From Escherichia coli (GTDB lineage: Bacteria; Pseudomonadota; Gammaproteobacteria; Enterobacterales; Enterobacteriaceae), in NCBI RefSeq assembly GCF_029227855.1, contig NZ_CP074356.1: a stretch of DNA of 64,000 nucleotides; one strand, given 5' to 3'. Shown here one piece after another: positions 1 to 62,083 of this stretch; the stretch's first letter is position 1, and each line of letters begins with the position of its first letter. The notes below the pieces were generated by a model that was given only the letters and a program-made list of their open reading frames with translations, ran no database searches and was not told the DNA's origin. Both the position numbers and the translations under genes were made by a program.

Positions 1-343
1 GCGCCCGTTCATAAAACGCAAAACGATTGATGCGGATGATGTCAGGACACGGGGCTTGTAGTGAAAGCGCATTACGGTAACGTCGTTCTACTTCAGGATC
101 GAGAGTGTCACCTTCTACCGCCGCCATCATCACCAGCGGCGGTGCATAACTGTCCAGTTCAAATAACGGGATTATCGCCTGGAGCAAGTCGCTCACCAAC
201 AGGCCATCAGCGCGGATCACCTGCGGTCCCATCGAATGGGCGGGAAAGTGAGCATCGGAAAAAATAATTTCATCTCCATGCCCCATCTCTGCCAGCACTT
301 TCAATAGTTCGGGAGAAATTAACGGCGAAATTGTTTTCAGCAT
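1..343 (-). CDS. fucU: L-fucose mutarotase FucU, N-terminal 114 codons only (3' end cut by window edge)
   Basis: ATG at 343-341 two nt downstream of the fucK stop; reverse-strand translation [34 protein letters not shown]... is RbsD/FucU-like; position in fuc operon. Confidence 0.8.
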
Positions 344-344
344 T

Positions 345-1793
345 TCACACTTCCTCTATAAATTCAGGTTCAGTTTGCGGGTAGAAATAACGGTACTGAT
401 AATGAATCTGTGCGCGGGCTTCTTCCGGGCTGTTAAATTCCCCTACGCCATACCAACCGAACAGCGCAGCTCCTGCGACGGTCGTTTCTGCGTCGTCGAG
501 AACTTTTACCGGAATATCAAGCATATTGGCTTTAATCTGATTCCACAATGTGTTGCGACTTCCTCCGCCGACTAACAATAATTCAGAGGCTTTAAAGTGC
601 CCGATTTTTTCCAGCATCTGTAGATTGCGCTGTAATTGCGCGGTTAACCCTTCCAGCGCCGCGCGATAGAAATGCCCCCGCGTGGTATTAAGCGTCACTC
701 CTTGCCAGCCAGCGTTCTGACACGACAATAAATCACACTGCATTTTCACGCCATCCGCGCCAGGCGCGATCAGACGAGCCTCTTCAATCAACATTTGCCA
801 GGGAGTTTCTGCCGTCCAGAACAGTTTTCTCACCCACTCCAGCACGCCGGATGCCAGCCATTGCATACCTGGGTTATACAACCCTGCCTGACTATCCAGT
901 TCGCAGGTGGAACCGGCATACTGACTTAACAGCGAAGTATCAACCTGGGCGCTACGGACCATTAAAATTTCCCATGTACCGGAAGAGAGCACGGGTTCAT
1001 TTTGTTCGGCACCAGCGCCAAAAAGGGCGAACTGGGTATCGTGACCTGCGGAAATCACCGGTATGCCAACGGGTAAGCCGAGCATTGCTGCGGCGCTGTT
1101 CTGTAACGTACCAATCTGTTCACCCGCTTCCACCAGACGAGGGAAGAGTCGGCGTGGAATACCGGTGGCTTGTAAAATTTGCGGACTGAAATCGCGTTGC
1201 TGGATATCCAGCATCTGGCTGGTTCCGGCCATCGTGATATCAGTAGTGAATTCGCCGGTTAAACGGTGGTTAATCAGCGACGAAATAAAGAGCCAGGCGT
1301 GCGCGAGTTCCAGCAGTTGTGGATGATTTTCTTTCAACCACACCAACTTATATAACGTATTGAAACTAAAGGCTCCGACGCCAGAAATAGCCTGCAACTG
1401 CTGTGCGGAGATCAACCGTTCAATATTGTCCATTACCGCTGCTGTTCGCGGACATTTCCAGCTAATGATCGGATAGAGCAGATTGCCTTGCTTATCTACC
1501 AGAGCGCCATCCACACCAAAGGTGGTGACGGCGATACCGCGGATGTGGCAATCAGTCAGTTCACTATTGATTTGCCGACAGCAATCAGCAAAGCGTTGCA
1601 AAATGGCGTCTAAAGACCACTGGTGCCAGGTGTTGTTTTCCATCGCGATATCGCTGGCATTAGGCGTTGAGGCGCGGGCAACAATTTTTCCCTGCCGATT
1701 AACCGCGATGGCTCTGACATTGGTCGCGCCACAGTCGAGTACCAGGATAACTTCTTGTTTCATAATCGCTCCTGCAATATAGCCGGATAACAT
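345..1793 (-). CDS. fucK: L-fuculokinase (FGGY kinase), 482 aa
   Basis: ORF track 482 aa; sequence and length match FucK; operon context fucPIKU. Confidence 0.93.
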
Positions 1794-1871
1794 TGTTTAT
1801 CCGGCTAACCACTCTTGCTTGTTCAGGCCCGGTAGCCGGAGCGACCGGGCATCACATCAGGGAGTAATGTA

Positions 1872-3647
1872 TTAACGCTTGTACAACGGGCCGTAGTTCT
1901 GGCAAGCGCGGTAATCCTGGCCTTCAATATCCATGCCGTGCGCGGCCCAGGCAGAAGGACGATACACTTTGGTCTCTTCAACGTTGTGCATACATACCGG
2001 GATACGCAGCATGGAGGCAAGAGTGATAAAGTCTGCGCCAACGTGGCCGATGGTCAGAACCCCGTGGTTAGCGCCCCAGTTCGCCATTACCGAGTACACA
2101 TCCGTAAACGGCCCTTTACCGGTGAGGCGCGGTGCAAACCAGGTGGTTGGCCAGGTTGAGTTGGTGCGTTTGTTGAGGATGTCATGCACATCCTTCGGCA
2201 ATTCCACGCTCCAGCCTTCCGCGATTTGCAGTACCGGTCCCAGGCCTTTGATGATGTTGACTCGAGTCATAGTGAACGGGACGCCGCCTTCGGTAAGGAA
2301 GCGAGAAGAGTAACCGCCGCCACGGAAGTATTCGTGGATCGCCGGGCACCATTCGGTAGCGGCGAGGCAAGCGTCAGCCTCTTGCTGAGAGATTTCCCAG
2401 TGCGGCTTCATCGTCGGGTTACCTTCGCTGTCGCGTTGTTTACAGGAACCGTCCAGCGCAGCAGAACCGGAGTTGATCAAATGGATGATGCCGTGTTCTG
2501 CCAGTCCGTCCAGTTTATGCCCCGTTACACGCTCAATTGCTTCTGGTGACCAGTAGGTACGCACATCGGCAAATACCTGAGCGGTACCAGTGAGCTGGTG
2601 GCCCATTAGCATTGCCACGCCGTTAAGACTGTCGTTTTCGGTCGCCACGACAAAGGGTTCGCGCACGCCATTCCAGTCAAATGAACTGTTAAGGATCGCT
2701 TCGGCGGTGTCGCCATTGGGATATTGATCGGTCCAGTGGCGTTGTCCCTGGAAGCCCGCAGCGATGGCGTTGTAGCCAAGTGATTCTTCCACGCGACCAA
2801 TATCGGCCAGTTTGCTGTTGCCTTGCATCATGTCGCGGATACACATCGCCATCAGTAAACTTTCGCGCAGAACTGCGCGGCTTTGCTCGGCATTGCGTTG
2901 ATACTGTTTGTTATTTTCATCTTCGCCATAGCGGAAGTTTTTATCAGCCCAGGCCAGCGCCATTTCCAGTTCGGCTTCGTCGTAAATCTTCTGATCGATA
3001 CGGCGACGCAGTTCGGTCATATCCACCGCCTGGACTTTCATTCCCAGCCAGGATTCAAAGAAGTTGTGATCAACAATGGAACCGGCGATACCCATCGAAA
3101 CGCCGCCCAGCGACAGATAGCTTTTACCTTTCATGCTGGCGACGGCCAAACCGGCGCGGGCAAAGCGCAGCAGTTTTTCTTCAACATCAGCAGGAATCGA
3201 TGTGTCATCGGCATCCTGAACGTCATGACCGTAAATGGAGAATGCCGGGATGCCTTTCTGGCTGTGAGCTGCCAGAGCCGCTGCCAGGTAAACAGCGCCG
3301 GGACGTTCAGTGCCGTTAAAGCCCCAAATGGCTTTCGGGCGGGTTGGATCCATGTCGATGGTTTCACTGCCATAGCACCAGCAAGGCGTTACCGTAATGG
3401 TGAGGCCTACATTCTGACTGCTGAATTTTTCTTCGCAAGCAGCGGCTTCAGCCATACCCGCGATACAGGTATCGGAAATGACACACTCGACGGCAGCTCC
3501 GCAGGCATGGCGCAGTTTCTCGGTCAGCAGTGCGGCCGTGGCTTTCGCCATATTCATTGTTTGTTCTTCAAGCGACTCACGAACACCCATGCGACGACCG
3601 TCAATAACCGGGCGGATACCAATTTTCGGTAAGCTGATTTTTTTCAT
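1872..3647 (-). CDS. fucI: L-fucose isomerase, 591 aa
   Basis: ORF track 591 aa [19 protein letters not shown]...; length and context. Confidence 0.95.
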
Positions 3648-3679
3648 TACTGATTCCTCACTTTATTCGGAAAATATGT

Positions 3680-4996
3680 TCAGTTAGTTGCCGTTTGAGA
3701 ACGGAAACGGGCAAAGATAAAGATGACTGCGAAGCAGAGTGCCGGGATCAGTTCGGCAGTGGGGATGTTGCCCGCTGCGTCACTGACAAACCCCATGACC
3801 GGAGTGACAATACCGCCGCCAATAATGGTCATAACGATGAAGGACGAACCGTATTTGGTGTCCTGGCCGAGATTTTTAATGCCCAGCGAGAAGATTGTTG
3901 GGTACTGAATCGACATAAAGGCACTGCATAAAGTCAGGGCTATTAAGCCCACATGACCGCCAGCGAAGGCTGAGATCAGGCACAGTGCCATAGCGATTAA
4001 TGCGTAGGCGGCCAGGACTTTGTGTGGTGCGAAGCGACTGATGAGCCAGGTACCGGTGAAACGACCAATAAAGAAGCACACCATGGTTCCGGTTAAATAG
4101 TTAGCGGCAAAGCCTGCAGTCATACCTGGAATTTCTTCTACAGCGTAGCGAATCAAATAGCTCCAGCAGGCCGTTTGTGCGCCGACATAGCAGAATTGCG
4201 CTAATACCGCCCAGCGCCAGTGACGAATACGCGCCAGACGAGAAAGCGATGCGGAGAACGATCCTTGTTTGGCGTCACTGTGATTATCACTCTGCAATGC
4301 CGGGAATTTCGTCAGCATGATCAGCAGGGCGACCAGTAACACGATAGCCACGATGATCATATAAGGTGTCTGTACCGATAATACCAGGCTGTGTTTATAC
4401 GCACTCAATTGCTCTGGAGACATTTTATCGAGAACGTCTTGCGATTGATGTGGCACGTTAGACAAAATAAGACTTTGCCCAAAGACAACCGCGATAATTG
4501 CGCCAAATGAGTTAAATGTTTGCGCAAGATTTAAGCGGAAGTGACCACTGCTTTCCGGCCCTAATACCGTAACAAAAGGGTTTGCGGCAGTTTCCAGACA
4601 ACCTAATCCGGCTGCAATAATAAATAGGCCAACTAAAAATAAGGTGTAGTTCATTATTTCTGCAGCGGGCCAGAATAATGCAGCGCCCAAGGCATATAAA
4701 AATAATCCGGTAATAATCCCTGCTTTATAACTGAGTTTTTTCATCAATATCCCGGCAGGGATTGGGATAATGAAATAACCAAAGTAAAAGGCCGATTGGA
4801 TCAGGCCAGCCTGGAAATTTGTCAGCGTAAAAGCCTGCTGGAATTGAGGTAATAAAATGTCGTTAAGGTTATTGGCTACCGCCCAAAGAAAAAACAGTGA
4901 GCACAGCAGCGCGAATGGAATAATGTAACTTCTGCTTTGCCCTGCATCTTTATCTACCGCACGGTAACTCTGCGTTTGTATTGATGTGTTTCCCAT
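3680..4996 (-). CDS. fucP: L-fucose:H+ symporter (MFS), 438 aa
   Basis: ORF track 438 aa, polytopic hydrophobic protein; first gene of fucPIK. Confidence 0.93.
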   Translation of the reverse strand: MGNTSIQTQSYRAVDKDAGQSRSYIIPFALLCSLFFLWAVANNLNDILLPQFQQAFTLTNFQAGLIQSAFYFGYFIIPIPAGILMKKLSYKAGIITGLFLYALGAALFWPAAEIMNYTLFLVGLFIIAAGLGCLETAANPFVTVLGPESSGHFRLNLAQTFNSFGAIIAVVFGQSLILSNVPHQSQDVLDKMSPEQLSAYKHSLVLSVQTPYMIIVAIVLLVALLIMLTKFPALQSDNHSDAKQGSFSASLSRLARIRHWRWAVLAQFCYVGAQTACWSYLIRYAVEEIPGMTAGFAANYLTGTMVCFFIGRFTGTWLISRFAPHKVLAAYALIAMALCLISAFAGGHVGLIALTLCSAFMSIQYPTIFSLGIKNLGQDTKYGSSFIVMTIIGGGIVTPVMGFVSDAAGNIPTAELIPALCFAVIFIFARFRSQTATN

Positions 4997-5542
4997 AGCA
5001 TCCTCTTAGGTTCAGAAGCTTAAGCACGTAATCGGTTATGTTTTCAAAAGTGCAAAACCAGCGAGTTCGGGCTTCATATCAGTGAATATTTGCCTGTCAG
5101 AAATGAACTCATGGATTCATTTTCAAATAAAAAACGCTCTGTAATATGACGGCGGTCACACTTATTAGCTGGGAGGTGACTTTATGTGACTACCATCACT
5201 TTAATAATCGAAATTTCATGCCCGTTTCAGAAAATAAATCATAAAAAACACAAACCCGATGACCGTATTAATTGTTTGTGCCGAAAACGGGCATTTCTGG
5301 CGAGAGGGAATGGGAAAATGACCGTTTTGATAAATATTTTTAAGAGCGGTCATTTTTAATGGGGTTATAAAAAGAGAAGTTGCAGTTATTTACTGTGATT
5401 AGTTGAACCAGGTCACAAAATATAAGCTTGTGAATTTCTTTCTTGTTAATCAGGAAGAAGATGGTGGGTAATTAAACGGCTAATTCAATAGTGTGAAAGG
5501 AACAACATTATTGCCCTGTTTTGAATCAGAGAGAGGTAGCTA
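4997..5542. promoter_or_regulatory. Divergent fucPIKU / fucAO control region; CRP-like site TGTGACTACCATCACT near 5185-5200 and three ATGACCG-type motifs
   Basis: 546 bp AT-rich intergenic between divergently oriented fucP and fucA; near-consensus CRP half-sites read directly. Confidence 0.55.
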
Positions 5543-6190
5543 ATGGAACGAAATAAACTTGCTCGTCAGATTATTGACACTTGCCTGGAAATGACCCGCC
5601 TGGGACTGAACCAGGGGACAGCGGGTAACGTCAGTGTACGTTATCAGGATGGGATGCTGATTACGCCTACAGGTATTCCATATGAAAAACTGACAGAGTC
5701 GCATATTGTCTTTATTGATGGCAACGGTAAACATGAGGAAGGAAAGCTCCCCTCAAGCGAATGGCGTTTCCATATGGCGGCCTATCAAAGCAGACCGGAT
5801 GCCAACGCGGTTGTTCACAATCATGCCGTTCATTGCACAGCAGTTTCCATTCTTAACCGACCGATCCCCGCTATTCACTACATGATTGCGGCGGCTGGCG
5901 GTAATTCTATTCCTTGCGCGCCTTATGCGACCTTTGGAACACGCGAACTTTCTGAACATGTTGCGCTGGCTCTCAAAAATCGTAAGGCAACTTTGTTACA
6001 ACATCATGGGCTTATCGCTTGTGAGGTGAATCTGGAAAAAGCGTTATGGCTGGCGCATGAAGTTGAAGTGCTGGCGCAACTTTACCTGACGACCCTGGCG
6101 ATTACGGACCCGGTGCCAGTGCTGAGCGATGAAGAGATTGCCGTAGTGCTGGAGAAATTCAAAACCTATGGGTTACGGATTGAAGAGTAA
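5543..6190 (+). CDS. fucA: L-fuculose-1-phosphate aldolase, 215 aa
   Basis: ORF track 215 aa MERNKLARQIIDTCLEMTRLGL...; class II aldolase. Confidence 0.95.
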   Translation: MERNKLARQIIDTCLEMTRLGLNQGTAGNVSVRYQDGMLITPTGIPYEKLTESHIVFIDGNGKHEEGKLPSSEWRFHMAAYQSRPDANAVVHNHAVHCTAVSILNRPIPAIHYMIAAAGGNSIPCAPYATFGTRELSEHVALALKNRKATLLQHHGLIACEVNLEKALWLAHEVEVLAQLYLTTLAITDPVPVLSDEEIAVVLEKFKTYGLRIEE

Positions 6191-6214
6191 TTTCGTAAAG
6201 CAACAAGGAGAAGG

Positions 6215-7366
6215 ATGATGGCTAACAGAATGATTCTGAACGAAACGGCATGGTTTGGTCGGGGTGCTGTTGGGGCTTTAACCGATGAGGTGAAACGCCG
6301 TGGTTATCAGAAGGCGCTGATCGTCACCGATAAAACGCTGGTGCAATGCGGCGTGGTGGCAAAAGTGACCGATAAGATGGATGCTGCAGGGCTGGCATGG
6401 GCGATTTACGACGGCGTAGTGCCCAACCCAACAATTACTGTCGTCAAAGAAGGGCTCGGTGTATTCCAGAATAGCGGCGCGGATTACCTGATCGCTATTG
6501 GTGGTGGTTCTCCACAGGATACTTGTAAAGCGATTGGCATTATCAGCAACAACCCGGAGTTTGCCGATGTGCGTAGCCTGGAAGGACTTTCCCCGACCAA
6601 TAAACCCAGTGTACCGATTCTGGCAATCCCCACCACAGCAGGCACTGCGGCAGAAGTGACCATTAACTACGTGATCACTGACGAAGAAAAACGGCGCAAG
6701 TTTGTTTGCGTTGATCCGCATGATATCCCGCAGGTGGCGTTTATTGACGCTGACATGATGGATGGTATGCCTCCAGCGCTGAAAGCTGCGACGGGTGTCG
6801 ATGCGCTCACTCATGCTATTGAGGGGTATATTACCCGTGGCGCGTGGGCGCTAACCGATGCACTGCACATTAAAGCGATTGAAATCATTGCTGGGGCGCT
6901 GCGAGGATCGGTTGCTGGTGATAAGGATGCCGGAGAAGAAATGGCGCTCGGGCAGTATGTTGCGGGTATGGGCTTCTCGAATGTTGGGTTAGGGTTGGTG
7001 CATGGTATGGCGCATCCACTGGGCGCGTTTTATAACACTCCACACGGTGTCGCGAACGCCATCCTGTTACCGCATGTCATGCGCTATAACGCTGACTTTA
7101 CCGGTGAGAAGTACCGCGATATCGCGCGCGTTATGGGCGTGAAAGTGGAAGGTATGAGCCTGGAAGAGGCGCGTAATGCCGCTGTTGAAGCGGTGTTTGC
7201 TCTCAACCGTGATGTCGGTATTCCGCCACATTTGCGTGATGTTGGGGTACGCAAGGAAGACATTCCGGCACTGGCGCAGGCGGCACTGGATGATGTTTGT
7301 ACCGGTGGCAACCCGCGTGAAGCAACGCTTGAGGATATTGTAGAGCTTTACCATACCGCCTGGTAA
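6215..7366 (+). CDS. fucO: Lactaldehyde reductase (iron-containing alcohol dehydrogenase), 382-383 aa; start may be second ATG at 6218
   Basis: ORF track MMANRMILNETAWFGRG...; GGGSPQD iron-ADH motif. Confidence 0.95.
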   Translation: MMANRMILNETAWFGRGAVGALTDEVKRRGYQKALIVTDKTLVQCGVVAKVTDKMDAAGLAWAIYDGVVPNPTITVVKEGLGVFQNSGADYLIAIGGGSPQDTCKAIGIISNNPEFADVRSLEGLSPTNKPSVPILAIPTTAGTAAEVTINYVITDEEKRRKFVCVDPHDIPQVAFIDADMMDGMPPALKAATGVDALTHAIEGYITRGAWALTDALHIKAIEIIAGALRGSVAGDKDAGEEMALGQYVAGMGFSNVGLGLVHGMAHPLGAFYNTPHGVANAILLPHVMRYNADFTGEKYRDIARVMGVKVEGMSLEEARNAAVEAVFALNRDVGIPPHLRDVGVRKEDIPALAQAALDDVCTGGNPREATLEDIVELYHTAW

Positions 7367-51729: not shown

Positions 51730-54360
51730 ATGCGTAAATATCCTTTAAGTTTACTGAAGGATAAAAATATTGTGACTTTTTTTGATTTCTGGGGAAAAAC
51801 CCGACGCGGCGAGAAAGACGGGGGCGACGACTATCACCTTCTTTGCTGGCATTCGCTGGATGTAGCCGCGATGGGCTATTTAATGGTTAAAAGCAATTGC
51901 TTCGGGCTGACTGACTATTTTCGTCAACTAGGTTTCGCTGATACGGAGCAGGCAGCACAATTTTTCGCCTGGCTATTGTGCTGGCACGATACTGGAAAAT
52001 TTGCCCGCTCTTTTCAGCAACTTTACCTGCACCCACAACTCAAGGTTCCGGAAGGCGCAAGAAAGAATTACGAAAAGATCTCTCATTCAACGCTGGGCTA
52101 CTGGCTGTGGCATCATTATTTAAGTGAATACGAAGAATTGCTTCCTTCATCTTCACTCTCTCCGCGCAAACTTAAACGGGTGATGGAGATGTGGATGCCC
52201 ATGACTACCGGGCATCATGGTCGGCCCCCTGACCGTATTGATGAACTGGATAATTTTCTGCCTGAAGACAAAGCTGCCGCACGAGATTTTCTCCTTGAAA
52301 TCAAGGTACTGTTTCCGCTCATCGAGATCCCCGCATTCTGGGATGATGACGAGGGCATTGAACTTTTAAAACAACTTTCCTGGTATATCTCTGCAACCGT
52401 CGTACTCGCAGACTGGACGGGATCGTCAACGCGGTTTTTTCCACGCGTTGCACAGGCAATGGATATTAAAGATTACTGGCAGAAGGCTTTAGTTCAGGCT
52501 CAAAACGCCTTAACCGTCTTTCCTCCAAAAGCACAAACCGCGCCTTTCACCGGAATTAATACGCTGTTTCCTTTTATTGAGCACCCGACACCGTTACAGC
52601 AAAAGGTGCTGGATCTGGATATCAGCCAGCCTGGGCCACAGTTATTTATTCTGGAGGATGTGACTGGCGCAGGTAAAACAGAAGCGGCGCTTATCCTGGC
52701 CCACAGGTTGATGGCTGCGGGGAAAGCACAGGGTTTGTTTTTTGGCCTGCCAACAATGGCAACGGCCAATGCCATGTACGATCGGCTGGTAAAAACCTGG
52801 CTTGCTTTCTATTCGCCAGAATCCCGCCCCAGCCTGGTGCTGGCACACAGTGCCCGCACATTAATGGACCGCTTTAATGAATCACTCTGGTCCGGTGATT
52901 TAGTCGGGTCAGAAGAACCGGATGAACAAGCGTTCAGTCAGGGATGTGCGGCCTGGTTTGCCGACAGTAACAAGAAGGCGTTGCTGGCTGAAATTGGCGT
53001 CGGCACGCTGGATCAGGCGATGATGGCGGTGATGCCGTTTAAACATAATAATCTGCGGCTTCTGGGACTGAGTAACAAAATCCTGCTGGCTGATGAGATC
53101 CATGCCTGTGACGCTTACATGTCGTGCATTCTTGAAGGATTGATTGAGCGGCAGGCGCGTGGAGGAAACAGCGTTATTTTGCTTTCTGCCACGTTATCTC
53201 AACAGCAGCGCGACAAACTCGTTGCTGCCTTTGCGCGTGGTGCAGAGGGCCAGCAAGAAGCTCCGTTCCTGGAAAAGGATGATTACCCCTGGCTGACGCA
53301 CGTTACGAAATCGGATGTGCATTCACACCGGGTAGCAGCGCGCAAAGACGTTGAGCGTAGCGTGAGCGTGGGTTGGCTTCATAGCGAACAAGAGTGTATT
53401 GCGCGTATCGAATCGGCGGTAAGTCAGGGGAAATGCATCGCCTGGATCCGGAATTCTGTCGATGATGCTATTAAAGTTTATCGTCAGTTACTTGCCCGCG
53501 GCGTCATTCCTGCTTCCAGCCTTTCTCTTTTTCATAGCCGCTTTGCTTTTAGCGATCGCCAGCGAATTGAAACGGAAACGCTGGCACGCTTTGGTAAAGA
53601 AGATAGCTCACAGCGTGCCGGAAAAGTCCTCATTTGTACTCAGGTCTTAGAGTCGAGCGTTGATTGCGATATGGACGAAATGATTTCCGACCTTGCCCCC
53701 ATTGATTTGCTGATCCAGCGAGCGGGGCGATTACAGCGACATATCCGCGATATTAATGGTCAGTTAAAGCGTGACGGAAAAGACGAGCGTTCCCCTCCTG
53801 AATTGCTGATTCTGGCCCCCGTCTGGGACGACGCTCCAGGTGACGAATGGTTCGGCAGTGCCATGCGTAACAGTGCATATGTCTATCCCGATCATGGACG
53901 AATCTGGCTGACGCAGCGTGTACTGCGTGAGCAAGGCGCTATTCAAATGCCACACGCAGCCCGCCTTCTTATTGAATCAGTCTACGGTGAGGACGTGGTA
54001 ATGCCGGAAGGATTTGCCCGCAGCGAGCAGGAACAAGTGGGCAAATATTACTGCGATCGCGCAATGGCTAAAAAGTTTGTGCTGAACTTTAGGCCCGGCT
54101 ATGCCGCCAATATCAACGATTACCTCCCGGAAAAACTGTCGACACGTCTGGCTGAGGAGTCTGTTTCCCTGTGGCTGGCTACCTGTATTGCCGGTGTGGT
54201 GAAGCCTTATGCCAACGGTGCTCACGCATGGGAAATGAGCGTTGTCAGAGTGCGTCGAAGCTGGTGGAAAAACATCGGGATGAGTTTTCTTTACTGGAAG
54301 GGGAAGCGTTCAGGCAGTGGTGCATTGAACAGCGGAAAGATCCGGAGATGGCAAACGTGA
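51730..54360 (+). CDS. cas3: Cas3 HD nuclease / superfamily 2 helicase (type I-E); ORF ends at 54360 after about 35 low-quality codons, while a protein-like C-terminal segment continues in another frame to 54428 (apparent frameshift near 54240-54262)
   Basis: ORF track 876 aa; HD motif LLCWHDTGKF, Walker A DVTGAGKTEAAL, motif II LLADEIHACD, motif VI QRAGRLQRH; track ORF 54171..54428 carries ...KLVEKHRDEFSLLEGEAFRQWCIEQ... Confidence 0.88.
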   Translation: MRKYPLSLLKDKNIVTFFDFWGKTRRGEKDGGDDYHLLCWHSLDVAAMGYLMVKSNCFGLTDYFRQLGFADTEQAAQFFAWLLCWHDTGKFARSFQQLYLHPQLKVPEGARKNYEKISHSTLGYWLWHHYLSEYEELLPSSSLSPRKLKRVMEMWMPMTTGHHGRPPDRIDELDNFLPEDKAAARDFLLEIKVLFPLIEIPAFWDDDEGIELLKQLSWYISATVVLADWTGSSTRFFPRVAQAMDIKDYWQKALVQAQNALTVFPPKAQTAPFTGINTLFPFIEHPTPLQQKVLDLDISQPGPQLFILEDVTGAGKTEAALILAHRLMAAGKAQGLFFGLPTMATANAMYDRLVKTWLAFYSPESRPSLVLAHSARTLMDRFNESLWSGDLVGSEEPDEQAFSQGCAAWFADSNKKALLAEIGVGTLDQAMMAVMPFKHNNLRLLGLSNKILLADEIHACDAYMSCILEGLIERQARGGNSVILLSATLSQQQRDKLVAAFARGAEGQQEAPFLEKDDYPWLTHVTKSDVHSHRVAARKDVERSVSVGWLHSEQECIARIESAVSQGKCIAWIRNSVDDAIKVYRQLLARGVIPASSLSLFHSRFAFSDRQRIETETLARFGKEDSSQRAGKVLICTQVLESSVDCDMDEMISDLAPIDLLIQRAGRLQRHIRDINGQLKRDGKDERSPPELLILAPVWDDAPGDEWFGSAMRNSAYVYPDHGRIWLTQRVLREQGAIQMPHAARLLIESVYGEDVVMPEGFARSEQEQVGKYYCDRAMAKKFVLNFRPGYAANINDYLPEKLSTRLAEESVSLWLATCIAGVVKPYANGAHAWEMSVVRVRRSWWKNIGMSFLYWKGKRSGSGALNSGKIRRWQT

Positions 54361-54525
54361 TTTTAGTTACCGATGACGAAAGTTGCGGGTATTCGGCTAT
54401 GGAAGGATTGACTGGCAAGGTTGGTTGAGATGCCTGCGACAGGGCTCTCTGAATAGTTGATACACCGAAAAGGATGGAATGATGGACAACCGACCTGGGA
54501 TGGTCTTTTTTACGAGAGGATGCGT

Positions 54526-56088
54526 ATGAACTCGTTTTCACTTCTGACAACCCCGTGGTTGCCCGTTCGTTATAAAGACGGAACGACAGGCAAACTGGCG
54601 CCTGTCGATCTGGCGGATGAAAATGTTGTCGATATTGCTGCGCCACGGGCAGATCTCCAGGGAGCGGCATGGCAGTTTTTGCTGGGGCTACTACAAACCA
54701 GCTTTGCGCCAAAAGATCATCGTCGTTGGGATGATATCTGGGAAGACGGACTGGAATCTGAAAAGCTACGGGAAGCATTGCTGTCCTTAGAACACGCTTT
54801 CCAGTTTGGGCCAGATTCCCCTTCATTTATGCAGGATTTCGAGGCGCTCACAGGAGATAAAGTTCAGGTCGCTTCGCTACTGCCTGAGATTCCCGGCGCT
54901 CAAACAACGAAGTTTAATAAAGACCACTTTATCAAGCGTGGTGTAACGGAATACCTGTGCCCACATTGTTCTGCGTTAGCTCTGTTCTCCCTACAGTTAA
55001 ATGCGCCGTCAGGTGGTAAAGGCTACCGCACCGGTTTACGCGGCGGTGGGCCGATGACCACTCTGATTGAATTACAGGAATATCAGGGCAATCAACAAAC
55101 GCCCTTGTGGCGCAAACTGTGGCTCAATGTGATGCCGCAGGACGAAGCCGACTTACCGCTACCCAAAAAATTTGACGATCTGGTTTTCCCCTGGCTTGGC
55201 CCGACGCGTACCAGCGAACTGGCCGGTGCGGTGGTAACCGATGATCAGGTTAATAAACTCCAGGCGTACTGGGGAATGCCGCGGCGTATTCGTATTGATT
55301 TTAATACCACGACAGTCGGCAACTGCGATATTTGCGGCGAGCAGAACGACGCGCTCCTGAGCCTGATGACGACCAAAAATTACGGCGCGAATTATGCCAT
55401 GTGGCAGCATCCCTTAACGCCTTACCGTGTACCCCTTAAAGAGGGCGGCGAGTTTTACTCGGTCAAACCACAACCAGGCGGTTTAATCTGGCGCGACTGG
55501 TTAGGCCTTATCGAAACGGGTAAATCAGAAAACAATACGGAACTTCCCGCGCTGGTGGTGAAACTCTTTAATGCCAGCAGTCTCAAGCAGGCAAAAGTGG
55601 GCCTATGGGGATTTGGTTATGATTTTGACAACATGAAAGCGCGCTGTTGGTACGAACACCATTTCCCGCTACTGCTCAATAAAAAAGAAGGCCAGATACC
55701 GAAGCTGCGGCTGGCTGCGCAAACGGCTTCACGGATTCTGAGTCTGTTACGGAGTGCATTGAAAGAAGCATGGTTCTCCGATCCAAAAGGTGCAAGGGGT
55801 GATTTCAGTTTTGTGGATATCGACTTCTGGAACAAAACTCAGCATCGCTTCCTGAGGTTAGTGCGCCAAATTGAAGAAGGTCAGGATGCGGATGAATTAC
55901 TCGGCAAATGGCAAAAGGAAATTTGGTTATTCGCGCGTCAGGATTTTGACGAGCGTGTATTCACTAATCCTTATGAGCCCGTTGATTTGAAACGCGTCAT
56001 GACCGCGCGCAAGAAATATTTTACAACATCGGCGGAGAAGCAAAGTGCTAAAGCCGCCAGGGAGAAAAAGCAGGAGGCTGCTGAATGA
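54526..56088 (+). CDS. casA: Cascade large subunit Cse1 (CasA), 520 aa
   Basis: ORF track 543 aa trimmed to MNSFSLLTTPWLPVRYKDG (ATG 54526, GAGAGGA RBS); first gene after cas3 in I-E order. Confidence 0.88.
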   Translation: MNSFSLLTTPWLPVRYKDGTTGKLAPVDLADENVVDIAAPRADLQGAAWQFLLGLLQTSFAPKDHRRWDDIWEDGLESEKLREALLSLEHAFQFGPDSPSFMQDFEALTGDKVQVASLLPEIPGAQTTKFNKDHFIKRGVTEYLCPHCSALALFSLQLNAPSGGKGYRTGLRGGGPMTTLIELQEYQGNQQTPLWRKLWLNVMPQDEADLPLPKKFDDLVFPWLGPTRTSELAGAVVTDDQVNKLQAYWGMPRRIRIDFNTTTVGNCDICGEQNDALLSLMTTKNYGANYAMWQHPLTPYRVPLKEGGEFYSVKPQPGGLIWRDWLGLIETGKSENNTELPALVVKLFNASSLKQAKVGLWGFGYDFDNMKARCWYEHHFPLLLNKKEGQIPKLRLAAQTASRILSLLRSALKEAWFSDPKGARGDFSFVDIDFWNKTQHRFLRLVRQIEEGQDADELLGKWQKEIWLFARQDFDERVFTNPYEPVDLKRVMTARKKYFTTSAEKQSAKAAREKKQEAAE

Positions 56089-56621
56089 GTATTGTAAAAG
56101 AGGAGCACAAAGCCACGCTGCGTAAATGGCACGAAGAGTTGCAGGAAAAACGCGGCAATCGTGCCAGTCTGCGGCGTAGCACAACGGTTAATGATGTTTG
56201 TCTGTCAGAAGGGTTTCGTTCTCTGCTGATGCAGACCCACACGTTGTGGAAAATTGAATCACAGGAGTGGCGTTTTACCGCACTGGCGCTGGTTGCCGCC
56301 GTTGCCGCCAATGTAAAAGCCATTGATGAACGGCAGCCTTTTGCCGCGCAGTTGGCGGCGGTAATGTCTGAGGGGCGTTTTACTCGCCTGTCGGCAGTCA
56401 AAACGCCGGATGAATTACTGCGCCAGTTACGTCGCGCGGTCAAATTATTAAATGGTTCCGTCAATCTTATCTCTTTGGCAGACGATATTTTCCGCTGGTG
56501 CCAGGAGAGCGACGATCTGCTCAATCATCACCGCCGCCAGCAGCGGCCAACAGAATTTATCCGTATCCGCTGGGCGCTGGAATATTACCAGGCTGGCGAC
56601 GCCGATAACGAACAAAATTAA
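56085..56621 (+). CDS. casB: Cascade small subunit Cse2 (CasB), 178 aa
   Basis: ORF track 178 aa; ATGA overlap with the cse1 stop. Confidence 0.85.
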   Translation: MSIVKEEHKATLRKWHEELQEKRGNRASLRRSTTVNDVCLSEGFRSLLMQTHTLWKIESQEWRFTALALVAAVAANVKAIDERQPFAAQLAAVMSEGRFTRLSAVKTPDELLRQLRRAVKLLNGSVNLISLADDIFRWCQESDDLLNHHRRQQRPTEFIRIRWALEYYQAGDADNEQN

Positions 56622-56635
56622 TAAAGGACTATCTC

Positions 56636-57691
56636 ATGACGACATTTATTCAGCTTCATTTGTTAACCGCTTACCCTGCTGCCAACCTTAACCGTGATGA
56701 CACCGGTGCGCCAAAAACTGTGGTACTGGGTGGAGCAACGCGTCTGCGCGTTTCCTCACAAAGTCTGAAACGTGCGTGGCGCACTTCTGCACTTTTTGAA
56801 CAGGCACTGGCGGGCCATATTGGTATTCGCAGTGGGCGTATTGCGCGTGAGGCGGCAACTATCCTGATTGAGAAAGGCATCGAAGAGAAAAAAGCCATCG
56901 AATGGGCGGCAAAAATTGCGGATTATCTTGGGAAAGCTAAAAACGACAAAAAACCAAAAGATCCGCTCACTAACGCCGAAACTGAACAGCTAGTCCATAT
57001 CAGCCCGGCAGAATTTGACGCCGTAAAAGCGCTGGCCCATCAACTGGCCGAAGAAAAGCGCGCGCCAAAAGAGGAAGATCTCGCTTTGTTACGTAAAGAT
57101 CGCATGGCGGTAGATATCGCTATGTTTGGTCGTATGCTGGCGAATAAACCCGAATTTAATGTTGAAGCCGCCTGCCAGGTCGCGCATGCATTTGGTGTCA
57201 GTGAAACGATTGTCGAAGATGATTTTTTCACCGCCGTTGATGATTTGCGCCAGGCTTCTGAAGATGCCGGTGCCGGGCATCTTGGTGAAACCGGATTCGG
57301 TTCTGCGCTGTTCTACACCTATATCTGCATCGATAAAGATCTGCTGGTCGAAAACCTCGGCGGTGACGAAGCGTTAGCTAATCAGACCTTGCGCGCCTTT
57401 ACGGAAGCCGCACTTAAAGTCTCCCCAACCGGCAAACAGAACAGCTTTGCCAGCCGTGCCTACGCCTCCTGGGCGCTGGCAGAAAAAGGCACTGAACAAC
57501 CACGCTCTCTGGCGGCGGCTTTCTATGAACCCATTAATGGCACCCGGCAGTTAGATGTGGCGGTGCAGCGTATTACAACGCTTCGCGAAAATATGAATAC
57601 GGTCTATGAACAGAAGACCGAATGCGCAAGCTTTGACGTGATGAACAAACAGGGAAGCATGAAGGACGTGCTGGACTTTATCTGCGCGTAA
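56636..57691 (+). CDS. casC: Cascade backbone subunit Cas7 (CasC), 351 aa
   Basis: ORF track 351 aa MTTFIQLHLLTAYPAANLNRDDTGAPK... Confidence 0.88.
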   Translation: MTTFIQLHLLTAYPAANLNRDDTGAPKTVVLGGATRLRVSSQSLKRAWRTSALFEQALAGHIGIRSGRIAREAATILIEKGIEEKKAIEWAAKIADYLGKAKNDKKPKDPLTNAETEQLVHISPAEFDAVKALAHQLAEEKRAPKEEDLALLRKDRMAVDIAMFGRMLANKPEFNVEAACQVAHAFGVSETIVEDDFFTAVDDLRQASEDAGAGHLGETGFGSALFYTYICIDKDLLVENLGGDEALANQTLRAFTEAALKVSPTGKQNSFASRAYASWALAEKGTEQPRSLAAAFYEPINGTRQLDVAVQRITTLRENMNTVYEQKTECASFDVMNKQGSMKDVLDFICA

Positions 57692-57701
57692 GGGGCGGCT
57701 A

Positions 57702-58448
57702 ATGAGCCAATATTTGATTTTTCAGCTTCATGGGCCAATGGCATCCTGGGGCGTCGATGCCCCCGGCGAAGTGCGTCATACCCATGAACTGCCTTCGCGC
57801 TCAGCATTGCTGGGGCTGCTGGCTGCCGGGGTAGGGATTCGGCGTGATGATACCGAACGATTAAACGTGTTTAACCGCCACTATTCACTGGTGGTTTGCG
57901 CCAGCCGTAACCCGCGCTGGGCACGGGATTATCACACAATCCAGATGCCAAAAGAGGTGCGTAAAGCGCGTTATTTCAGCCGTCGCGAAGAGTTGAGCGA
58001 CCCTGATCTTCTGAGCGCGATTATCTCCCGGCGCGACTACTACACCGACGCCTGGTGGATGGTGGCGGTGGCAACAACAGCCGATGCGCCTTACAGCCTC
58101 GAACAGTTGCAGGGCGGTTTACGCCATCCAGTTTTTCCTCTTTATCTGGGGCGAAAAAGTCATCCGCTGGCGTTACCACTTGCGCCGTTACTGCTCGAAG
58201 GCAACGCGTCTGATGTCTTACGTAACGCATACCAACAGTATCAGGATAGTTTCCGCGAACTGAAAGTCTCACTCCCGAAACTTCAGGATGAATGCTGGTG
58301 GGAAGGGGAACACGACGGCCTGGTCGCGAGCAAAATATTACGTCGCCGGGATGTTCCTTTAAATCGTCAGCAGTGGCTGTTTGGGGAACGCACCATCAAT
58401 CAGGGGCCGTGGCTCAGCAAGGAGGAACCATGTACCTCTCAAGAATAA
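57702..58448 (+). CDS. casD: Cascade subunit Cas5 (CasD), 248 aa
   Basis: ORF track 248 aa MSQYLIFQLHGPMASWGVDAPGEVRHT...LLGLLAAGVGIRRDD. Confidence 0.88.
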   Translation: MSQYLIFQLHGPMASWGVDAPGEVRHTHELPSRSALLGLLAAGVGIRRDDTERLNVFNRHYSLVVCASRNPRWARDYHTIQMPKEVRKARYFSRREELSDPDLLSAIISRRDYYTDAWWMVAVATTADAPYSLEQLQGGLRHPVFPLYLGRKSHPLALPLAPLLLEGNASDVLRNAYQQYQDSFRELKVSLPKLQDECWWEGEHDGLVASKILRRRDVPLNRQQWLFGERTINQGPWLSKEEPCTSQE

Positions 58449-59076
58449 CCTTACATACCGGCCAGCTTTCGCCTGCGCAGTTGCTGCATCTGGTGGATCG
58501 CGGTGAATATGTAATGCATCAGTGGCTGTGGGATCTTTTTCCTGGCGGCAAAGAAAGGCAATTTCTTTATCGTCGGGAAGAACTCCTGGGGGCGTTTCGC
58601 TTTTTTGTCCTGTCGCAGGAACGCCCGGCGGAAAATGATATTTTCACCATCGAATGCCGACCATTTGCGCCAGAGTTGCGTACCGGACAATCCCTTTGTT
58701 TCAACCTGCGGGCGAATCCAACAATTTGTAAAGCGGGCAAACGCCACGACTTGCTGATGGAGGCGAAACGGCAGGTGAGGGGGCAGGTGGAAGGAAGTGA
58801 TGTCTGGTTGCATCAACAACAGGCGGCGCTGGACTGGCTGGCAGCGCAGGGGGAAAGAAGCGGTTTTACACTACTGGATACCTCGGTCGATGCCTACCGA
58901 CAACAGCAACTGCGGCGGGAAAACTCCCGGCAACTGATCCAGTTCAGTAGCGTGGATTATACGGGGATGCTTACGGTCACCGATCCTGGGTTATTTCTGC
59001 AACGTCTGAGCCAGGGGTATGGCAAAAGCCGCGCGTTCGGCTGTGGTCTGATGCTGATCAAACCCGGAGCAGAGGC

Positions 59077-59080
<4 letters not shown>
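58430..59080 (+). CDS. casE: Cas6e (CasE) pre-crRNA endoribonuclease, 216 aa
   Basis: ORF track 262 aa trimmed to MYLSRITLHTGQLSPAQL (ATG 58430, GGAGG RBS); 19-nt overlap with cas5; C-terminal G-rich motif GYGKSRAFGCGLMLI. Confidence 0.86.
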
Positions 59081-60290
<1,210 letters not shown>

Positions 60291-60386
60291 GTTATCTGTT
60301 CTTTAAAAATAAGGAAATGTTTTAATTTAGTTGGTAGATTGTTGATGCGGAATAAATTTGTTTAAAAACAGTTATGTATGCTTAGT
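60291..60386 (+). promoter_or_regulatory. AT-rich CRISPR leader between cas2 and first repeat; contains GTTGGTAGATTGT at 60330-60342
   Basis: AT-rich 96 bp; motif shared with the queE-proximal array leader at the same spacing. Confidence 0.7.
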
Positions 60387-61025
60387 GTGTTCCCCGCGCC
60401 AGCGGGGATAAATCGAGATCACCGTGTTAAATAACCGATTGAACGCCGTGTTCCCCGCGCCAGCGGGGATAAATCGGCCAGGCCAATACAGTTGGCGAAG
60501 AAGCGAAGGTGTTCCCCGCGCCAGCGGGGATAAATCGACACCGGGCTGGATAAAAAAACTATCGGGAAAGTGTTCCCCGCGCCAGCGGGGATAAATCGCC
60601 GTTTGATAGCTGTTCACGCTGGCTGATGCCGTGTTCCCCGCGCCAGCGGGGATAAACCGCGCAGTTCGCTACCGAGCGTGGTTTGCTGGTCGTGTTCCCC
60701 GCGCCAGCGGGGATAAACCGGCGCACAGCGACGCGAAATCAACGAAAATTTAGTGTTCCCCGCGCCAGCGGGGATAAACCGATTGCCAGATACTGTGTAT
60801 ATCCACCGACTAAGTGTTCCCCGCGCCAGCGGGGATAAACCGCAGGGAAACCGTTCGTACTTATCGACCTCAACGTGTTCCCCGCGCCAGCGGGGATAAA
60901 CCGAAGGGGACGGCTACGGGACGCCGCCTATTGATGTGTTCCCCGCGTCAGCGGGGATAAACCGGACGCACTGGATGCGATGATGGACATCACTTGGAGT
61001 TCCCCGCCCCTGCGGTAGAACTCCC
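60387..61025 (+). CRISPR. CRISPR array (K-12 CRISPR I / 2.1 equivalent): 11 x 29-bp repeats GTGTTCCCCGCGCCAGCGGGGATAAA(T/C)CG, 10 x 32-bp spacers, period 61; terminal repeat degenerate (GAGTTCCCCGCCCCTGCGGTAGAACTCCC)
   Basis: Repeats start at 60387, 60448, 60509, 60570, 60631, 60692, 60753, 60814, 60875, 60936, 60997; counted directly. Confidence 0.96.
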
Positions 61026-61045: not shown

Positions 61046-62083
61046 TCAAGACGCCTTCGCCAGCTCCTTCACCAGCGGTAGCATTATCCGCATAACATCA
61101 CGGCAGCGACGTTCTATTCTTCCAGGAAGTGCCTTATCAATATGTTGTTGATTATCCAGTCTTACGTCATGCCAGCTATTTCCCGCAGGGAATGCAGCTG
61201 TTTTTGCGCGTTGCTGATAACCATCCTTATTCCCAAGATTCCAATTTGTTGCTTCTACCGAAAGTACGGCAATACCGGCTTTGTCGAAAACTTCGGCATC
61301 ATTACAACAGCCAGTACCCTTCGGATAATTTTTATTCAAACCCGGATTGGTCGTTGCGGCAATTCCATGACTACGCGCAATTGCCAGCGCCCTGTCGCGC
61401 GTTAATTTCCTTACTGCTTCAGGGGTTTTTACACCGCTGTTGAAATACAATTTATCGCCAACAATTAAGTTATCGAGATTAATCACCAGCAGCGTATTTT
61501 TCTTTTCGGTGTCACTCATCCGCTTGAGTAAATTCTCAGCGCCTAATTTCCCTTCCTCTTCGCCGCTGGTCGCCACAAATCGAATACCATACTCGGTAGG
61601 CGTATTTTTCAGGCGTTCTGCCAGTTCCAGCATGACACCTAAACCTGCAGCGTTATCATCCATTCCTTGTAACGTCAGTCCGCCGAGATTGGCATCGGCG
61701 TCAGCATCGCTCAGCGGGGCGTAAGTATCCAGATGCGCCATAATGATGATCTGCTGCGGCGCTTTGCCTTCATGAGCGGCAATCACCGTACTTCCCGTCA
61801 CGTTATGCCAGCTCTTGCGATTATCGCGGGCGGTATAAATATACCGACTATTAAATGTCCGAATATCACTGCGATAACCCATTTGCTGAAACTGTTGGCG
61901 AATATAATCGGCAGATAACATTTCTGCAGGAGTTCCGGTCATGCGTCCCGGAAAGAAAGTAGCAATATGTCGTGCCTGAGTATTAGCAAAATCGCCAGGT
62001 TTAGCTGACGAGGCGTGTACGGGGAGAATAAAGCATACGCCGAGCGCCAGGGCAGCGGTACGGTGGCGCAATGCGGAAAACAT
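61046..62083 (-). CDS. iap: Alkaline phosphatase isozyme conversion aminopeptidase, 345 aa
   Basis: ORF track 345 aa MFSALRHRTAALALGVCFILPVHASSAKPG... with signal peptide. Confidence 0.9.
   Translation of the reverse strand: MFSALRHRTAALALGVCFILPVHASSAKPGDFANTQARHIATFFPGRMTGTPAEMLSADYIRQQFQQMGYRSDIRTFNSRYIYTARDNRKSWHNVTGSTVIAAHEGKAPQQIIIMAHLDTYAPLSDADADANLGGLTLQGMDDNAAGLGVMLELAERLKNTPTEYGIRFVATSGEEEGKLGAENLLKRMSDTEKKNTLLVINLDNLIVGDKLYFNSGVKTPEAVRKLTRDRALAIARSHGIAATTNPGLNKNYPKGTGCCNDAEVFDKAGIAVLSVEATNWNLGNKDGYQQRAKTAAFPAGNSWHDVRLDNQQHIDKALPGRIERRCRDVMRIMLPLVKELAKAS

What the first reader, a model, noticed from the sequence alone, without database searches (positions are those of the whole stretch)
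60387..61025. Repeat polymorphism in the cas-adjacent array marks the four leader-proximal units as a later acquisition block
Repeats 1-4 read ...GGGGATAAATCG, whereas repeats 5-10 read ...GGGGATAAACCG. Repeat 10 also carries GCGTCAGC instead of GCGCCAGC, and repeat 11 is degenerate. Because new units are copied from the leader-proximal repeat, the C-to-T change probably arose in repeat 1 and was then inherited by the next acquisitions, giving a relative chronology for the spacers.
Basis: seen in the sequence. Interest (0 to 1): 0.4.

Follow-up and report, generated by a model that had tools for sequence, protein, structure and literature searches.

The report
Inherited repeat SNP in E. coli CRISPR
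The four newest repeats of this E. coli type I-E CRISPR array share one base change because each new repeat is copied from the repeat next to the leader; this is real and useful as a strain-history marker, but it is a known, experimentally established behaviour.

Summary
The cas-adjacent (iap-side) type I-E array of an E. coli genome has 11 repeats and 10 spacers. R1-R4 carry T at repeat position 27 and R5-R10 carry C. R10 also has C13T, and R11 is degenerate.

Sister assemblies form a nested ladder at the leader end: S2-S4, then S1-S4 (the window), then X1+S1-S4. Every added repeat is T27. In all 18 T27-block arrays and fragments read, the T27 repeats are contiguous, and they abut the leader wherever the leader end is present. 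T27 inside unrelated arrays stays a singleton. Yosef et al. 2012 showed experimentally that new repeats are copied from repeat 1.

Three corrections:
- Four T repeats mean three post-mutation acquisitions (S1-S3). S4 was already the newest spacer when the change arose.
- Position 27 is not a stem base. It is position -3 of the crRNA 5' handle (Cas5e/Cas7.6 contact), and R10's change lies in the loop.
- T27 is not private to this array. 153 of 5426 complete E. coli genomes have it, and the same number carry spacer S8. Most are a second array type with seven other spacers on the same S8-S10 base.

Whether T27 arose once (followed by loss of S4-S7 in that type) or twice is unresolved. Novelty: already known. 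Interest is low.

The parts
51730..60290 (+). Complete type I-E cas operon: cas3 51730-54360, cse1 54457-56088, cse2 56085-56621, cas7e 56636-57691, cas5e 57702-58448, cas6e 58430-59080, cas1e 59077-60000, cas2e 59997-60290
   Evidence: Pfam hits are all far above cut-off. The 1310 nt upstream of R1 are identical to JNEC-KY178, where RefSeq annotates cas6e/cas1e/cas2e.
60291..60386 (+). AT-rich leader between the cas2e stop codon and repeat 1; new units are inserted at its 3' junction
   Evidence: Sequence. It is identical in L001, L014 and L015, which differ from the window only by units added or missing directly at this junction.
60387..60598 (+). T27 block: repeats R1-R4 (60387-60415, 60448-60476, 60509-60537, 60570-60598) with spacers S1-S3 between them. 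These are the post-mutation acquisitions.
60599..60630 (+). Spacer S4. It was the newest spacer when C27->T arose in the repeat upstream of it, so it predates or coincides with the mutation.
   Evidence: Inference from the semi-conservative duplication of R1 (PMC3384332) and from the T-before-S4 / C-before-S5 boundary.
60631..60935 (+). Repeats R5-R9 (consensus, C27) with spacers S5-S9. S5-S7 are private to this lineage. S8 is shared with the 7/2-type arrays, and S9 is shared too but differs by one base (their X9).
   Evidence: S5 matches a prophage baseplate-hub gene 31/32 with an ATG flank. S6 matches a prophage integrase/recombinase gene 31/32.
60936..60996 (+). Repeat R10 with C13T in the hairpin loop, plus the oldest spacer S10
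   Evidence: The T13 repeat before S10 is present in every array read that ends in S10, including plasmid pIOMTU792. GCGTCAGC is also the form given in the published species consensus (PMC3737337).
60997..61025 (+). Degenerate terminal repeat R11
   Evidence: It is identical in L001.
61046..62083 (-). iap (alkaline phosphatase isozyme conversion aminopeptidase), the conserved trailer-side neighbour that identifies this array as the iap-side CRISPR (CRISPR1 / CRISPR2.1)
   Evidence: Pfam Peptidase_M28 and RefSeq annotation of the matching loci.
34109..34686 (+). Second type I-E array of the same genome (GAGTT-type repeats), used as a comparator; it has no T27

Best explanation
This is the iap-side type I-E CRISPR array of an E. 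coli strain. A C->T substitution arose at repeat position 27 in the leader-proximal repeat, at a time when S4 was the newest spacer. Cas1-Cas2 integrates each new spacer at the leader-repeat junction. The two strands of repeat 1 are separated and each is filled in, so both daughter repeats inherit whatever repeat 1 carried. The next three acquisitions (S3, S2, S1), and X1 in sister strains, therefore all carry T27, while the older repeats R5-R10 keep C27.

The SNP is most likely a neutral, heritable time stamp. The duplication rule is shown experimentally in the literature, and the nested arrays are shown here. The neutrality of T27 is inferred. So is the sub-claim (about 0.55) that T27 arose only once, in an ancestor carrying S4-S10, with the common 7/2-type array later losing S4-S7 by an internal deletion.
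For: - Block structure and coordinates.
- Nested ladder of leader-end units, all T27: L014 (3 T), window (4 T), L001/L015 (5 T). The flanks are identical over 1310 nt upstream.
- In the 7/2-type family (L002-L011, L013, L024, L025, metagenome L020) the T27 repeats are always contiguous and abut the leader.
- Internal or trailer-end T27 in unrelated arrays stays a singleton: NCTC9699 CRISPR2, an Erwinia MAG, Pluralibacter, L018, L021.
- No T27 in the window's second array, so it is not copied from there.
- Repeat 1 is the template for the new repeat (PMC3384332).
- The cas operon is complete.

For a single origin:
- T27 is rare, in 153 of 5426 genomes, and the same number of genomes (153) carry spacer S8.
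- Every sampled array with S8 also has T27.
- The flanks of the two array types differ by only 1-2 SNPs.
- Internal deletions are frequent in this family: at least 5 different ones among 13 full-length 7/2-type arrays.
- E. coli array evolution is reported to be explained by vertical descent plus deletion (PMC4524480).
Against: - The ladder could in principle be produced by successive loss of the first unit rather than by gain. Against that, all deletion variants seen in the 7/2 family keep the first spacer X2.
- The T/C boundary lies before S4 in this lineage but before X8 (directly on S8) in the 7/2 type. A single origin therefore needs an unobserved 4-spacer deletion. No array combining X spacers with S4-S7 was found: S1-S7 occur as array spacers only in JNEC-KY178 among 5426 complete genomes, and S4 had 0 hits in metagenome contigs.
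- Recurrence at a repeat site does happen. pIOMTU792 has T13 in R1-R4 and again in R10, with C13 between.
- Neutrality of T27 is untested. Position -3 of the 5' handle is reported to make specific protein contacts.
Confidence: 0.9

Rival explanations
1. Parallel mutation. C27->T arose twice in repeat 1, once upstream of S4 in the window lineage and once upstream of X8 in the 7/2 lineage, from a common ancestor whose array was leader-R(C)-S8-S9-S10. The copying mechanism is the same; only the history of the SNP differs.
For: The boundary positions differ and no intermediate array was found. T27 has arisen independently elsewhere as singletons. The T13 pattern in pIOMTU792 shows that a repeat-1 site can change to the same state more than once.
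Against: T27 is rare, and among complete E. coli genomes T27 blocks were found only in arrays sharing the S8-S10 base (153 T27 genomes, 153 S8 genomes). No S8 array without T27 was sampled. Deletions are far commoner here than any specific repeat substitution.
Confidence: 0.33
2. Recombination. The T27 block with S1-S4 was imported as a segment from another strain's array and replaced the leader end of a C27 array, so the block marks a transfer rather than in-situ acquisitions.
For: Identical 7/2-type arrays occur in genomes of very different size and background. CRISPR segments are found on conjugative plasmids next to ISEcp1-blaCTX-M-15, so this locus does move.
Against: S1-S4 were found only together with S5-S10. 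No donor array was found. The one-unit steps S2 -> S1 -> X1 are what single acquisitions give, not segment replacement. PMC4524480 found no need for recombination to explain E. coli arrays.
Confidence: 0.04
3. Concerted evolution. The T spread between neighbouring repeats by gene conversion or unequal crossing-over, independent of acquisition.
For: Tandem repeats can homogenise, and unequal recombination clearly acts on these arrays, as the deletions show.
Against: Every block abuts the leader and grows only at the leader end together with a new spacer. Internal variants (R10 T13, R8 G20A in L004/L006-L008, NCTC9699 T27) have not spread to their neighbours.
Confidence: 0.02
4. Assembly or sequencing artefact in a repetitive region.
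For: Arrays are repeat-rich and short-read assemblies often break in them; L015 ends inside the array.
Against: The same pattern is present in a complete genome and in two independent Logan assemblies.
Confidence: 0.01

Closest known systems
E. coli type I-E CRISPR array next to cas2/iap (CRISPR1 of Touchon; CRISPR2.1 of Diez-Villasenor), 'CRISPR-A' repeat form (GTGTT...)
   Same: It has the same 29-nt repeat, 32-nt spacers, 61-nt period, AT-rich leader after cas2e, degenerate last repeat and iap neighbour.
   Different: Nothing structural differs. This array only carries the rarer T27 allele in its four newest repeats.
Repeat-1 templated duplication during adaptation (Yosef, Goren & Qimron 2012, PMC3384332)
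   Same: A one-base label in repeat 1 is transmitted to every newly inserted repeat. The natural T27 block and the S2 -> S1 -> X1 ladder are the in-the-wild counterpart of that experiment.
   Different: The label there was position 2 (GAG/GTG) in an engineered two-repeat array with overexpressed Cas1-Cas2. Here it is a spontaneous change at position 27 in natural isolates.
7/2-type array (e.g. NZ_CP023820.1; includes strains named 405)
   Same: It has the same cas/leader/iap haplotype (1-2 SNPs apart), the same oldest spacers S8, S9 (one base different) and S10, the same T13 repeat before S10, and the same T27 allele in a leader-proximal block.
   Different: Its seven T27 repeats are followed by seven entirely different spacers (X2-X8). 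It lacks S1-S7, and its T/C boundary sits directly on S8.

Membership tests
Type I-E CRISPR-Cas locus (E. coli iap-side array) | Complete cas3-cse1-cse2-cas7-cas5-cas6e-cas1-cas2 operon adjacent to the array | tested here: met
   Pfam hits for all eight proteins. The matching RefSeq loci are annotated cas6e/cas1e/cas2e.
Type I-E CRISPR-Cas locus (E. coli iap-side array) | 29-nt repeat matching the E. coli consensus, 32-nt spacers, 61-nt period, and a stable hairpin in the repeat | tested here: met
   The fold is -15.1 kcal/mol with the stem at positions 5-11/16-22. The consensus is quoted in PMC3737337.
Type I-E CRISPR-Cas locus (E. coli iap-side array) | AT-rich leader on the cas2 side, degenerate terminal repeat on the far side | tested here: met
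   The polarity is confirmed by arrays that differ only at the cas2-side end.
Type I-E CRISPR-Cas locus (E. coli iap-side array) | Spacers derived from mobile elements with a type I-E PAM (AAG/ATG) next to the protospacer | tested here: inconclusive
   S5 is 31/32 to a prophage baseplate-hub gene with an ATG flank. S6 is 31/32 to a prophage integrase with an ATA flank. No protospacer was found for X1 or S1-S4 in phages, plasmids or E. coli genomes.
Signature of repeat-1 templated duplication | Variant repeats form one contiguous block that abuts the leader | tested here: met
   This holds for the window, L001, L014 and L015, and for all 7/2-type arrays read.
Signature of repeat-1 templated duplication | Sister arrays with extra leader-end units carry the variant in the added repeat | tested here: met
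   Three T (L014), then four (window), then five (L001, L015).
Signature of repeat-1 templated duplication | Variants arising in internal repeats are not propagated | tested here: met
   R10 T13 and R8 G20A stay single. T27 singletons occur in NCTC9699 CRISPR2, an Erwinia MAG and Pluralibacter.
Signature of repeat-1 templated duplication | Direct demonstration that this strain's Cas1-Cas2 duplicates a T27 repeat 1 | not testable with these tools
   This needs an adaptation assay. The principle is shown for E. coli BL21-AI in PMC3384332.

The most novel reading that the evidence does not exclude
T27 may not be neutral. It changes position -3 of the crRNA 5' handle (AUAAACCG -> AUAAAUCG), which is reported to contact Cas5e/Cas7.6, and it changes the repeat-derived 'self' PAM equivalent from CCG to TCG. 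crRNAs from T27 units might load into Cascade or interfere less well, which would favour priming. That could explain why both T27 lineages show runs of new spacers (3-4 here, 6-7 in the 7/2 type) in a species whose arrays are usually considered static.
Probability: 0.05. Interest if true: 0.5.

Novelty: already known. Interest (0 to 1): 0.15.

Why it matters
The practical value is modest. T27 is a clean, rare clade marker: 153 of 5426 complete E. coli genomes carry it, the same number that carry spacer S8. It splits the array into pre- and post-mutation parts.

The S2 -> S1 -> X1 ladder in near-identical Japanese isolates is direct evidence of recent one-at-a-time spacer gain by a native E. 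coli type I-E system in nature, where such activity is usually thought to be rare. It does not reveal a new mechanism.

Tried and rejected
- An exact scan of metagenome contigs for spacer S4, to find an X8-S4 intermediate, gave 0 hits.
- A scan of one genome per species for the T27 repeat found only two singletons, in Pluralibacter and an Erwinia MAG. The metagenome scan for T27 found four loci: one 7/2-type fragment and three singletons.
- The protospacer search for X1 and S1-S10 found nothing in 50,697 phage records. In plasmids it found only CRISPR arrays, in chromosome-sized records filed as plasmids or on a hybrid plasmid, plus a weak 29/33 match of S8 to a T4SS gene. A priming signature for the T-era spacers therefore could not be tested.
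- The look-up of encoding contigs collapses similar places. Only 2 of 10 contigs with the window's Cas2 allele and 2 of 37 with the common allele could be read.
- I considered Dcm-site deamination as a cause of recurrent C->T. By eye, neither position 13 nor position 27 lies in a CCWGG site, so I dropped it.
- I considered the window's second array as the source of T27. Rejected, because it has none.
- The genome with 8 T27 repeats was not located.

Full report
**What is there.** The window is E. coli chromosome. The region from cas1e to iap matches 5422 of 5426 complete E. coli genomes. A complete type I-E operon, cas3 to cas2e (51730-60290), was confirmed with Pfam. It is followed by a 96-nt AT-rich leader, then an array of eleven 29-nt repeats and ten 32-nt spacers (60387-61025), then iap on the minus strand (61046-62083). 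This is the iap-side array, called CRISPR1 or CRISPR2.1 in the literature (PMC3737337). A second array with GAGTT-type repeats lies at 34109-34686.

**The observation.** It is correct in every particular.
- R1-R4 end in ATAAATCG and R5-R10 end in ATAAACCG.
- R10 has GCGTCAGC.
- R11 is degenerate.
- The chance that 4 T among 10 repeats are exactly the four nearest the leader is 1/210.
- The pattern recurs in independent assemblies, so it is not an artefact.

**Where the variant bases sit.** Folding puts the hairpin at positions 5-11/16-22 with a GCCA loop at 12-15. The T27 repeat folds identically, at -15.1 kcal/mol. T27 is therefore not a stem base. Mature crRNA begins with the last 8 nt of the repeat, AUAAACCG (PMC4288178). 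T27 becomes position -3 of the 5' handle of the downstream crRNA (S1-S4). That paper lists -3 among the positions with sequence-specific contacts to Cas5 and Cas7.6. R10's C13T is a loop base. GCGTCAGC is also the form printed in the published E. coli consensus. Every array I read that ends in S10 has it before S10. It is an old, shared allele rather than a private mutation.

**Related arrays, same lineage.**
- JNEC-KY178 (L001) has the window's array at 100% identity plus one extra unit at the leader end. That extra repeat is T27.
- Looking up the window's rare Cas2 allele (G86; the common allele is V86) found Logan assemblies. DRR063306 (L014) reads leader-S2-S3-S4|S5-S10 with three T27 repeats. 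DRR794474 (L015) reads X1-S1-S2-S3-S4|... with five.
- The three states are nested, differ only at the leader junction, and each added repeat is T27. The flanks are identical: 0 mismatches in 1310 nt upstream against JNEC-KY178.

**Related arrays, the other T27 family.**
- An exact search for the T27 repeat finds it in 153 of 5426 genomes, with a median of 7 copies.
- Nearly all are one array type. Strain 7/2 and many others, including strains named 405, have seven T27 repeats with spacers X2-X8. These are followed by C27 repeats with S8, S9 (one base different, called X9 here) and S10.
- Thirteen full-length arrays of this type were read, plus one metagenome fragment. In all of them the T27 repeats are contiguous and abut the leader.
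- At least five different internal deletions occur among them, and all retain the first spacer X2.
- Spacer S8 is also present in exactly 153 genomes. Every sampled S8 array has T27.
- S1-S7 occur as array spacers only in JNEC-KY178.

**T27 elsewhere.** In unrelated arrays T27 is a singleton. It is internal in the NCTC9699 CRISPR2 array and in an Erwinia MAG, and it is the trailer-most repeat in Pluralibacter. This is what is expected if only changes in repeat 1 are propagated.

**Mechanism.** Yosef et al. [quoted passage not shown] Goren et al. 2016 describe ruler-based cutting 8 nt beyond the GCGGG anchor. Position 27 lies in that 8-nt stretch, outside the anchor. Both daughter repeats derive from the old R1. 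The pattern T-before-S4 and C-before-S5 therefore means the substitution arose in R1 while S4 was the newest spacer, or as a fill-in error during S4 integration. Four T repeats correspond to three later acquisitions (S3, S2, S1), not four.

**Open point.** The T/C boundary lies before S4 here but before X8, directly on S8, in the 7/2 type. There are two readings.
- T27 arose once, in an ancestor with S4-S10, and the 7/2 lineage later lost S4-S7. A crossover between a T27 and a C27 repeat upstream of position 27 leaves C27 before S8, as observed. Rarity of T27, the equal counts of T27 and S8 genomes, the nearly identical flanks and the frequent deletions favour this (about 0.55).
- T27 arose twice (about 0.33). 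The missing intermediate favours this. So does pIOMTU792, which has T13 in R1-R4 and again in R10 with C13 between, showing that a site can recur.

I could not decide between them with the collections available.

**Comparison with what is known, and verdict.** This is an ordinary member of the E. coli type I-E array family. The block is a natural example of an established rule. The SNP adds no ordering beyond array polarity. It is a time stamp and a clade marker. The leader-end ladder in near-identical isolates is good circumstantial evidence for recent natural adaptation by this system. Novelty: already known. Interest: about 0.15.

Noticed in passing
L026 (NZ_LC542972.1, pIOMTU792) 1-7032: A 293-kb IncHI2A conjugative plasmid carries cas7e..cas2e, a 10-spacer array and iap next to wbuC/blaCTX-M-15. 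In its array R1-R4 have C13T, R5-R9 are consensus, and the repeat before S10 is again C13T. This is a second leader-proximal 4-repeat SNP block, but the same allele recurs non-contiguously.
   Followed up: partly
L027 (NZ_CP107157.1, pR11-698-2) 4780-5060: An IncI1 conjugative plasmid carries a fragment of the 7/2-type array right beside ISEcp1-blaCTX-M-15-wbuC. The fragment is the tail of X5, then R(T27)-X6-R(T27)-X7-R(T27), then 3 nt of X8. The sequence GGTTTAATCTCA is present at both ends of the fragment, which suggests the resistance unit was mobilised out of a chromosomal CRISPR array.
   Followed up: partly
window 34109-34686 and 35189-35278: The second type I-E array has ten GAGTT-type repeats, and two degenerate repeats lie about 500 nt further on. 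The cas-adjacent array uses GTGTT-type repeats, so the two arrays of one genome carry the two different species-wide repeat forms described in PMC3737337.
   Followed up: no
window 60660-60752 (S5, S6); L022, L023: S5 matches a prophage baseplate-hub gene (31/32, ATG flank). S6 matches a prophage integrase/recombinase gene in about 54 E. coli genomes (31/32 or 29/29; the flank in the copy read is ATA). None of X1 or S1-S4 has a detectable source in phages, plasmids or E. coli genomes.
   Followed up: partly
L003, L005, L010, L011, L013, L025: All deletion derivatives of the 7/2-type array keep the first spacer X2 and lose only internal units, so the leader-proximal unit appears protected from deletion.
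   Followed up: no
window 60253 (cas2e codon 86): The window, JNEC-KY178 and the two Logan assemblies share a rare Cas2 G86 allele (V86 in the 7/2 type, which the index lists in 6914 blocks). It is a handy marker for this sublineage.
   Followed up: partly
E. coli genome search: One genome has 8 exact T27 repeats, possibly a 7/2-type array with a new leader-end spacer. Four records labelled as plasmids carry spacer S8. Neither was located or read.
   Followed up: no
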